Positions 50,901-51,611 of a stretch of 64,000 nucleotides of DNA are shown piece after piece (within the stretch, counting starts at the first letter, position 1; the number at the start of each line of letters is the position of its first letter). Source of the DNA: Callorhinchus milii (taxonomy: Eukaryota); the NCBI RefSeq assembly GCF_018977255.1, contig NW_024704751.1, positions 9,610,001-9,674,000 of the forward strand. The letters are read 5' to 3'. A program made the position numbers and the translations under genes. A model generated the notes under the pieces. The model ran no database searches and was not told the DNA's origin. It was given only the letters and a program-made list of their open reading frames with translations.

Positions 50901-51464
50901 GGGAGTGTAAATCTGGAACTCTCTCCCTCCCCCGAAAGGCTGTAGATTATGGCTGGATCCATTTGGGTTGAGTGTCCAAATTGCTATTTTTTATTTGAAG
51001 GGATTATTACCCCCGGAAAAGCAATCCGCCAATCGAATAACAAGCGGGCTCCTACTTACTGCTAGGGAAACAAAGGCGTGTGTGTGTGTGTGTGTGGGTG
51101 GGGGGGGGGTAAGGAAACTTGCCTAATGTTTTGTCCTCGTTCCTCCTGCCTTTTTTTGCAAGCCCGTTTATATTTCTTCTTTTCTGACAATTGTTTAGTT
51201 GTCTCTCAAATTCCAGTATGAATTGTGCCTCAACCACCAAACTAAATTCCAGGCTGGGCATTCCATACCCTCGCAACCCACTGAGTAAGAAAAGAATTAC
51301 TCCAAACCTCACTCACCCTTTTGCCCTTTTGGTAATTAGGTAAATCTGTCCCCTCCAGTTACTGACTCACTGATTAATGTCTTGTTTGTTTTCTCTGATC
51401 AGAAAGGGACAGTCGACTGCCTTGGGGCCTCAGCAATCCTCCTGTCGTTGGTTGTTGTTCCACC

Positions 51465-51611
51465 ATGGTCAAAACAGTCTCAGGAGTGACAGCGACCACC
51501 TTTCTCCGAGATCTCCAGGAATTCCTCGGCTTTTTGTTGGTCACCTACACATTGCTGCTGTGTGGTTTGCTATCTGCAGGTTGGATGATCCAGTGCCTGA
51601 CCCTAGACTGA
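51465..51611 (+). CDS. Candidate 48-aa single-pass membrane microprotein (hypothetical)
   Basis: CCACCATGG start 62 nt after a strong acceptor (ag 51401-51402); MVKTVSGVTATTFLRDLQEFLGFLLVTYTLLLCGLLSAGWMIQCLTLD*; no homolog recognised. Confidence 0.4.
   Translation: MVKTVSGVTATTFLRDLQEFLGFLLVTYTLLLCGLLSAGWMIQCLTLD

What the first reader, a model, noticed from the sequence alone, without database searches (positions are those of the whole stretch)
51361..51611. Candidate unannotated single-TM microprotein exon (48 aa) between UPK3B and RASA4
Seen: in non-repetitive sequence, a branch-point-like stretch (ctgac/ctgat) and polypyrimidine tract gtcttgtttgttttctctgatcAG (acceptor 51401-51402) is followed by 62 ATG-free nt. 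An optimal Kozak start CCACCATGG then opens MVKTVSGVTATTFLRDLQEFLGFLLVTYTLLLCGLLSAGWMIQCLTLD*. This has an amphipathic FLRDLQE segment followed by a ~22-residue uncharged hydrophobic stretch. It is below the 60-aa ORF-track cutoff. A possible ATTAAA lies at 52655-52660. Established: regulator micropeptides such as phospholamban and sarcolipin have a non-coding first exon and a single coding exon encoding one TM helix. Inference: this is a real small membrane-protein gene; I recognise no homolog. The frame is also open from the acceptor in phase 1, so it could instead be a terminal exon spliced to a phase-1 donor (e.g. UPK3B exon 4).
Basis: partly seen in the sequence, partly recalled or inferred. 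Interest (0 to 1): 0.8.

Follow-up and report, generated by a model that had tools for sequence, protein, structure and literature searches.

The report
Hidden duplicate of a vertebrate microprotein
A 48-amino-acid reading frame between two known genes of a fish genome is a distant duplicate of a conserved but unstudied human microprotein gene, sits in what is likely a spliced exon, and likely makes a small membrane protein whose job is untested.

Summary
The 48-codon ORF, Kozak start and acceptor are there as described. The ORF is a divergent paralogue of the 44-aa vertebrate microprotein LOC128125816 / ENSG00000284934 / Gm49027. A profile built without it scores it at 31.8 bits (P 7e-12); 0 of 60,000 shuffles reach that. 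The family's orthologue lies on contig C8 beside DIABLO. Four flanking gene pairs (DTX, RASA, ORAI, CLIP) link the two loci, so an ancient genome-duplication origin is likely. In one probable RNA run, a 29x contig covers 51402-52129, from the acceptor to a GTGAGT donor, with no cover of the upstream uroplakin coding exons. The exon is therefore likely internal. The proposed ATTAAA end and the UPK3B-exon alternative are not supported. The human gene also lies in a 5' leader exon, co-transcribed with DIABLO. Whether this copy splices into RASA4 is open. Against: one supporting run, no orthologue found in other species, the family's C-terminal motif is lost, and there is no translation evidence. 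Verdict: probably a real, unannotated microprotein gene; function inferred only.

The parts
51362..51402 (+). Branch-point-like CTGAC/CTGAT, pyrimidine tract and AG acceptor
   Evidence: Sequence; X1 contig starts at 51402, the G of the AG
51403..52129 (+). 727-nt exon, likely internal: 62-nt leader, CDS, 518-nt trailer
   Evidence: X1 record 7: 758 nt, depth 29.4, aligned 51402-52129, last 30 letters off the genomic continuation; arithmetic
51459..51468 (+). Strong Kozak context TCCACCATGG
51465..51611 (+). 48-aa microprotein CDS, paralogue of LOC128125816
51489..51524 (+). Predicted amphipathic helix, residues 9-20
   Evidence: Hydrophobic moment 1.7-2.0 in 11-residue windows starting at residues 9-15; helix in the AlphaFold model
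51525..51590 (+). Predicted transmembrane helix, residues 21-42, with conserved Y28-T29, small residues 34/38 and W40
51551..51551 (+). A>G difference at the third position of Thr29 (synonymous), the only listed difference inside the CDS
   Evidence: Seen in X1 and in one of two X3 forms; codon
52130..52135 (+). Splice donor GTGAGT (CAA|GTGAGT)
   Evidence: Sequence; the X1 alignment stops at 52129
52655..52660 (+).
48922..49045 (+). Unverified candidate promoter and first exon (AAATAAAA at 48922; donor AGG|GTACGT after 49039)
   Evidence: Sequence only; no contig evidence seen
44244..47592 (+). Upstream neighbour: uroplakin-3-type gene (UPK3B by synteny), complete with its own TM exon and last exon
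   Evidence: Spliced contigs in X2 and X8; weak Pfam hits
57965..58029 (+). Downstream neighbour: first coding exon of RASA4; candidate splice target, untested
   Evidence: Sequence; C2 domain in a later exon

Best explanation
This is a 48-codon reading frame homologous to the vertebrate microprotein LOC128125816; it is likely a live gene that arose in an early vertebrate genome duplication, is likely spliced as an internal exon, and is predicted to make a single-pass membrane microprotein that would act as a small accessory subunit of another membrane protein. Shown: the ORF, the homology, the paralogous neighbourhoods, and one contig bounded by acceptor and donor. Inferred: an unknown upstream exon splices to 51403; ribosomes start at the first ATG, in strong Kozak context; the stop is 518 nt before the next junction but would partly escape nonsense-mediated decay (stop 147 nt from the start, exon over 400 nt). 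The product would lay residues 9-20 on the membrane surface, cross the membrane with residues 21-42, and pack against a partner helix through Y28/T29, the small residues 34/38 and W40. Rough odds: live coding gene about 0.75; genome-duplication origin, given the homology, about 0.8; accessory-subunit mode about 0.5; partner unknown.
For: Own-genome search gives one other hit, C8:7820020-7820124, and the reverse search returns the window ORF as best non-self hit. The C8 protein is 78% identical to a shark protein and matches tetrapod 'LOC128125816 homolog' entries. Profiles without the window ORF score it at 31.8 and 32.0 bits, about 1e-4 at genome scale; 0 of 20,000 shuffles reach it in each of three schemes, best 18.3. 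Alignment to the C8 copy is gapless with stop codons in register; core codon-position identity is 18/22/13 of 28, pN 0.28 against pS 0.61; no flank similarity except a shared repeat. Paralogue pairs near both loci: DTX 81%, RASA 76%, ORAI, CLIP 56 of 65. X1 contig 51402-52129 explains the whole bin depth (25.71 expected, 25.7 seen), while DNA-like X3 runs through the acceptor. AlphaFold: one helix, residues 6-46, pLDDT 84.5. Small residue at 34 and Ala at 38 in 185 of 185 motif-bearing family sequences and in this ORF. The human gene is one coding exon in a DIABLO 5' UTR exon (PMC6886504 supplement).
Against: Only 1 of 4 runs laid gives the exon-bounded contig; its RNA status is the tool's guess; the junction partners were not displayed. 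No orthologue of this copy was found: 0 candidates, 0 hits among 1.84 billion representatives, and none of the 120 listed of 143 profile hits exceeds 20 of 40 identity. It keeps only 11 of 21 positions that are at least 90% conserved in the family, and loses G33 and the C-terminal T-T-Y and V-x-K. Over all 48 codons pN (0.48) is close to pS (0.57). The tree cannot place it (end branch 10). The conserved residues do not cluster on one helix face (resultant 0.23), which weakens the single-interface idea. An MLXIP partner was not found on C10 with two exon queries. No translation evidence.
Confidence: 0.65

Rival explanations
1. A decaying duplicate: a real ancient paralogue that recently lost function but is still transcribed, its mRNA removed by nonsense-mediated decay.
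For: 10 of 21 highly conserved family positions changed, including the whole C-terminal motif; no orthologue found; stop 518 nt upstream of a donor; a neutrally evolving copy stays intact in 41% of simulations at 0.05 substitutions per site.
Against: ATG, strong Kozak context, gapless frame and stop position are all intact. Many core changes are conservative (V>L, S>T, A>G). Intact survival falls to 0.9% at 0.3 and 0.02% at 0.6 substitutions per site under my assumed rate of one indel per 15 substitutions, or 16% and 5% without indels. The only listed coding difference is synonymous.
Confidence: 0.17
2. A regulatory upstream ORF: the exon splices into RASA4, and its job is to damp RASA4 translation or trigger decay of that isoform; the peptide matters little.
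For: Same strand and 5.8 kb upstream of the RASA4 ATG; the 30-letter overhang of the X1 contig fits splicing into an exon shared with another transcript form (inference); the human paralogue lies in a DIABLO 5' UTR exon.
Against: Amino-acid conservation across vertebrates points to a function of the peptide. The two copies precede unrelated genes. The trailer holds 10 further ATGs, so it would be a poor leader for RASA4. The downstream exon is not identified.
Confidence: 0.1
3. An alternative transmembrane tail exon of UPK3B, spliced from its phase-1 donor at 45622.
For: The frame is open from the acceptor in phase 1; UPK3B lies 4 kb upstream on the same strand; only 15 of 2,031 joints were displayed.
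Against: X1 has the exon at 29x and zero depth over 44726-45967; X2 and X8 join that donor to the normal TM exon. The TM exon's donor is phase 2 and would read TGA at once. The homologues are free-standing 44-aa ORFs.
Confidence: 0.03
4. A chance hydrophobic ORF in a non-coding transcript.
For: 10 of 216 window ORFs are as hydrophobic; the single-sequence genome E-values are only 0.04 to 0.1.
Against: Profile score 31.8 bits against a best of 18.3 in 60,000 shuffles and 8.5 among the 3,040 other frames; it lies in the paralogous block.
Confidence: 0.03

Closest known systems
LOC128125816 / ENSG00000284934 / A0A2R8Y4M2 (human, 44 aa), mouse Gm49027; uncharacterised microprotein in a DIABLO 5' UTR exon (PMC6886504, supplementary file 4)
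   Same: Homologous core, similar length, one coding exon, stop in register, amphipathic-then-hydrophobic helix, position just upstream of a same-strand gene.
   Different: Not the orthologue (that is the C8 copy beside DIABLO). About 36% identical to human over the alignment. C-terminal motif lost, G33 replaced by Cys. The neighbour is RASA4. Found in no other species so far.
SERCA-regulating micropeptides (phospholamban, sarcolipin, DWORF, myoregulin)
   Same: Size, one predicted TM helix after an amphipathic segment, non-coding upstream exon (general features recalled, not from a call).
   Different: No Pfam, PDB-sequence or fold match. The ORF has no Asn, whereas a TM Asn is recalled as key in phospholamban and sarcolipin. 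The coding exon appears internal.
Conserved protein-coding upstream ORFs on bicistronic mRNAs (e.g. the SLC35A4 upstream ORF; search listing and abstract starts only)
   Same: A small conserved membrane-protein ORF with a strong start in a leader-type exon.
   Different: No sequence relation was tested or seen; bicistronic structure is not shown for this copy.

Membership tests
LOC128125816 microprotein family (homology) | Significant match to a family profile built without the query | tested here: met
   31.8 and 32.0 bits; 0 of 60,000 shuffles
LOC128125816 microprotein family (homology) | 44-50 aa in one coding exon, gapless, stop codon in register | tested here: met
LOC128125816 microprotein family (homology) | Core residues L14, E19, L21, F23, L25, Y28, T29, L31, L35, A38, W40 | tested here: met
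   All 11 identical; they are 11 of the 21 positions conserved in at least 90% of 95 distinct family cores
LOC128125816 orthologue group | C-terminal T-T-Y-x-x-V-x-K and G33 | tested here: not met
   M41, I42, Q43, T46, D48, C33; filed as a paralogue, not an orthologue
LOC128125816 orthologue group | Located directly upstream of DIABLO | tested here: not met
   The C8 copy holds that position; this copy lies between UPK3B and RASA4
LOC128125816 orthologue group | Co-transcribed with the downstream gene in a 5' leader exon | tested here: inconclusive
   Donor at 52130 and a 30-letter overhang in X1; downstream exon not identified
SERCA regulins (PLN/SLN/DWORF/MLN) | Sequence match to regulin models or solved structures | tested here: not met
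   0 Pfam families at E up to 10; PDB hits only to summed artificial PPR repeats; family profile 0 hits; Foldseek 0
SERCA regulins (PLN/SLN/DWORF/MLN) | Binds and modulates SERCA | not testable with these tools
   Needs a bench assay
Uroplakin-3 alternative TM exon | Spliced to UPK3B ectodomain exons | tested here: not met
   (X1 zero depth on those exons; X2 and X8 use the normal junctions); only 15 of 2,031 joints were shown
Ohnologue pair from vertebrate genome duplication | Both copies in duplicated blocks with several paralogue pairs | tested here: met
   DTX, RASA, ORAI and CLIP pairs within about 0.9 Mb on C8 and 0.35 Mb on C10; 4 of 5 neighbours tried, MLXIP gave no partner
Ohnologue pair from vertebrate genome duplication | Gene tree dates the split before jawed vertebrates diverged | tested here: inconclusive
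   Long branch, 44 columns, not placeable

The most novel reading that the evidence does not exclude
The microprotein that GENCODE found in the DIABLO leader is half of an ancient ohnologue pair. Its lost sister survives here and rides in the leader of an unrelated gene, RASA4, after an inversion. The peptide gene would then be an independent ancestral vertebrate membrane regulator that is co-transcribed with whichever gene lies downstream, and the sister's changed C-terminus would mark a new partner or location.
Probability: 0.25. Interest if true: 0.72.

Novelty: new variant of a known kind. Interest (0 to 1): 0.5.

Why it matters
The human protein is conserved from mammals to sharks and teleosts, has no Pfam family, and its identifiers gave no functional paper in my searches. 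A roughly 40%-identical paralogue separates an 11-residue core from a dispensable C-terminal motif, a ready map for mutagenesis. It also suggests the peptide predates, and does not depend on, its link to DIABLO. It is a clear example of a gene that annotation and protein collections miss: neither copy from this genome is in the 15-billion-sequence collection. The effect is modest until function or conservation in a second species is shown.

Tried and rejected
Direct homologue searches with the 48-aa ORF found nothing; the link came only through the own-genome paralogue. No RNA holder was listed on record; RNA status of X1, X2 and X8 is guessed. X8 has no cover of the ORF, and X2 has a partial low-depth cover amid intronic contigs; neither is counted for or against. 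A poly(A) tail as the 30 unaligned letters was considered; it should leave 28 letters, not 30, because the exon ends in AA, and a consensus donor follows (inference). Pfam: nothing for the ORF or the C8 copy; 3 of 29 family members gave unrelated weak hits. PDB PPR hits are sums of 5-6-bit matches over identical designed repeats. Foldseek: no match. ESM Atlas with chicken and human homologues: best 0.81 and 0.78, chance level. Two-copy complex prediction: no verdict, score 0.02, not evidence either way. A third genomic hit, C8:21.70 Mb (E 1.4), looks like chance and was not recovered by another query. Script 29 was swamped by repeats, and the tblastx step returned no rows, so redid it with tblastn. 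Earlier scan notes: nothing relevant. The PMC6886504 supplements list no new ORF at RASA4, DTX2 or RASAL1 (file 1 not searched). PMC5045715 was not held. The donor weight matrix used recalled approximate frequencies and only ranks candidates.

Full report
OBSERVATION. The ORF is at 51465-51611 (+), 48 aa, as quoted. The branch-like motifs, AG acceptor, 62-nt ATG-free leader and ATTAAA are present, and the tract is as pyrimidine-rich as the true UPK3B acceptors. Hydrophobicity is not special in itself: 10 of 216 ATG ORFs of 35-80 aa in the window reach the same level, though only this one has a strong Kozak context. Neighbours are a Deltex gene (WWE and DTC domains), a uroplakin-3-type gene and a C2-domain gene. 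The names DTX2, UPK3B and RASA4 rest on these domains plus recalled synteny. The organism is likely a cartilaginous fish, since its family orthologue is closest to a shark protein.

HOMOLOGY. Database searches with the ORF found nothing. The own genome gave one further hit on C8 (46% over 35 residues, E 0.04), a 50-aa ORF. That protein retrieves 20 of 20 candidates, many named 'LOC128125816 homolog'; the family spans mammals, birds, reptiles, amphibians, teleosts and sharks and includes human NP_001401927.1 / A0A2R8Y4M2 and mouse Gm49027. A profile of 21 family sequences without the window ORF scores it at 31.8 bits, P 7.2e-12. None of 20,000 shuffles reached this in any of three schemes (best 18.3), and among 3,042 reading frames of the window and 80 kb of C8 the next best after the two copies was 8.5. 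A broader profile of 28 sequences gives 32.0 bits; with about 2.1e7 frames in the genome this is E near 1e-4. Reverse searches return the window ORF as best non-self hit.

DIVERGENCE AND SELECTION. The ORF keeps 11 of 21 positions that are at least 90% conserved among 95 distinct family cores (one row misaligned), and loses G33 and the C-terminal motif. Against the C8 copy the alignment is gapless and the stop codons coincide. In codons 13-40, identity by codon position is 18/22/13 of 28, pN 0.28 and pS 0.61; over all 48 codons pN is 0.48 and pS 0.57; flanks share only a repeat. Part of this signal comes from constraint on the C8 lineage. Simulated neutral decay leaves the frame intact in 0.9% of runs at 0.3 and 0.02% at 0.6 substitutions per site with an assumed indel rate, but in 41% at 0.05. 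Long-dead status is unlikely; recent loss is not excluded. The tree could not place the ORF. None of the 120 listed hits of the profile search is an orthologue of this copy; 23 weaker hits were not listed and only 8,000 candidates were scored.

SYNTENY. The C8 copy lies about 2.2 kb upstream of DIABLO exons on the same strand, between DIABLO and a VPS33A-like gene (name recalled; no Pfam hit for the short exon), near MLXIP-type and CLIP1 exons. Window genes have their closest paralogues on C8: DTX at 7.00 Mb, 81%, and RASA at 7.02 Mb, 76%. ORAI genes lie at C8 7.64 and C10 9.44 Mb, and CLIP-type CAP-Gly exons at C8 7.87 and C10 9.79 Mb, 56 of 65 identical against 27-28 for a C3 control. Two MLXIP exon queries found no partner. 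C8 reads DTX(+), RASA(-), microprotein(-), CLIP(-); C10 reads DTX(+), microprotein(+), RASA(+), CLIP(-). One inversion plus loss of the genes between would convert the first order into the second (inference). An origin in vertebrate genome duplication is the likely reading.

TRANSCRIPT. Six of 12 listed runs hold part of the stretch; none is on record as RNA. I laid 4 of the 12. X1 has zero depth over several unique regions, including UPK3B coding exons at 44726-45967, so it does not behave like DNA. It has one 758-nt contig at depth 29.4 aligned from 51402 to 52129, with 30 letters left over. Position 52130 begins GTGAGT. The contig alone explains the bin depth (25.71 against 25.7), and 727/1298 equals the 0.56 share of words. 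DNA-like X3 runs through the acceptor. X2 and X8 show fully spliced UPK3B ending in its own last exon. A 30-letter overhang is what a 31-mer assembly leaves when the next exon is shared with another transcript form (inference). No long X1 piece was displayed between 52302 and 53400, so the next exon probably lies further on, where RASA4 is the next known gene; a hole proves nothing, and only 15 of 2,031 joints were shown. Both partner exons remain unknown, and this evidence is one run.

DECAY. The stop lies 518 nt upstream of the donor, which would normally invite nonsense-mediated decay. Passages of PMC9880313 state that stops within 150 nt of the start codon, and exons over 400 nt, reduce decay; both apply here (147 nt; 727 nt). 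Ten more ATGs follow the ORF in the exon, none open to the donor, so efficient downstream translation from this form is unlikely.

WHAT IS KNOWN OF THE PARALOGUE. In PMC6886504 I searched the main text (no hits) and read matching rows and part 4 of supplementary file 4 (the comment cell is cut and file 1 was not searched). ENSG00000284934 is 44 aa, identical to stored P0171, one coding exon in a DIABLO 5' UTR exon, co-transcribed with DIABLO in human, mouse and apparently chicken, while DIABLO also has a strong downstream start. Expression is given as neuroblastoma in human, and embryo or neonate neurons and adrenal gland in mouse. It is called uncharacterised. Searches for LOC128125816, Gm49027, A0A2R8Y4M2 and VPS33A+DIABLO+microprotein gave 0 papers; ENSG00000284934 gave one omics paper, seen as a listing only; searches on the UPK3B-RASA4 interval and the paralogon gave 0. 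Subscription journals and most supplements are not covered.

MECHANISM. AlphaFold gives one helix, residues 6-46, pLDDT 84.5. Residues 9-20 are amphipathic and 21-42 are hydrophobic. Near-invariant polar and aromatic residues inside a TM helix (Y28, T29, W40), and small residues at 34 and 38 in 185 of 185 motif-bearing family sequences, suggest helix-helix contact with a protein partner rather than plain anchoring. This is inference; the conserved positions are spread around the helix. I commit to a small accessory subunit of a membrane protein, regulin-like in mode but not a regulin by sequence.

VERDICT. Probably a real, unannotated microprotein gene: a divergent ohnologue of an uncharacterised vertebrate microprotein, filed as a new variant rather than an orthologue. 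Interest 0.5; 0.72 if it proves to be spliced into RASA4 as its sister is into DIABLO.

Noticed in passing
G000:C8:7820008-7820160 (-); L002:1489-1641: The genome's orthologue of LOC128125816 (50 aa) is also absent from the protein collection. It has an upstream acceptor-like tract and an AATAAA 569 nt after its stop, so it may have a free-standing form here.
   Followed up: partly
G000:C8:7800155-7801272 (-); L004: Exon-like frames with a signal-peptide-like start and helical cytokine look, next to the MLXIP-type gene; no Pfam hit for the last exon. Possibly a divergent cytokine; the resemblance is recalled.
   Followed up: partly
window 44397-45089: Both spliced UPK3B runs (X2, X8) join 44396 to 45089; an 11-nt insertion behind 44882 is seen in X2 and X3, an intronic polymorphism.
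   Followed up: no
window 47500-57360: No second uroplakin-3 gene was evident between UPK3B and RASA4 among ORFs of 80 aa or more, where mammals have UPK3BL (PMC6886504 row; position partly recalled); short exons or the N stretch could hide one.
   Followed up: no
window 52219-52301: A low-depth (4.5x) exact X1 contig inside the inferred intron, perhaps unspliced precursor.
   Followed up: no
window 56430-57300: About 870 nt of tandem CAGCCCAGTG(CA)n units just upstream of the N stretch before RASA4.
   Followed up: no
window 10763-11455: The first Deltex exon carries long Gly/Ala homopolymer runs before the WWE domain.
   Followed up: no
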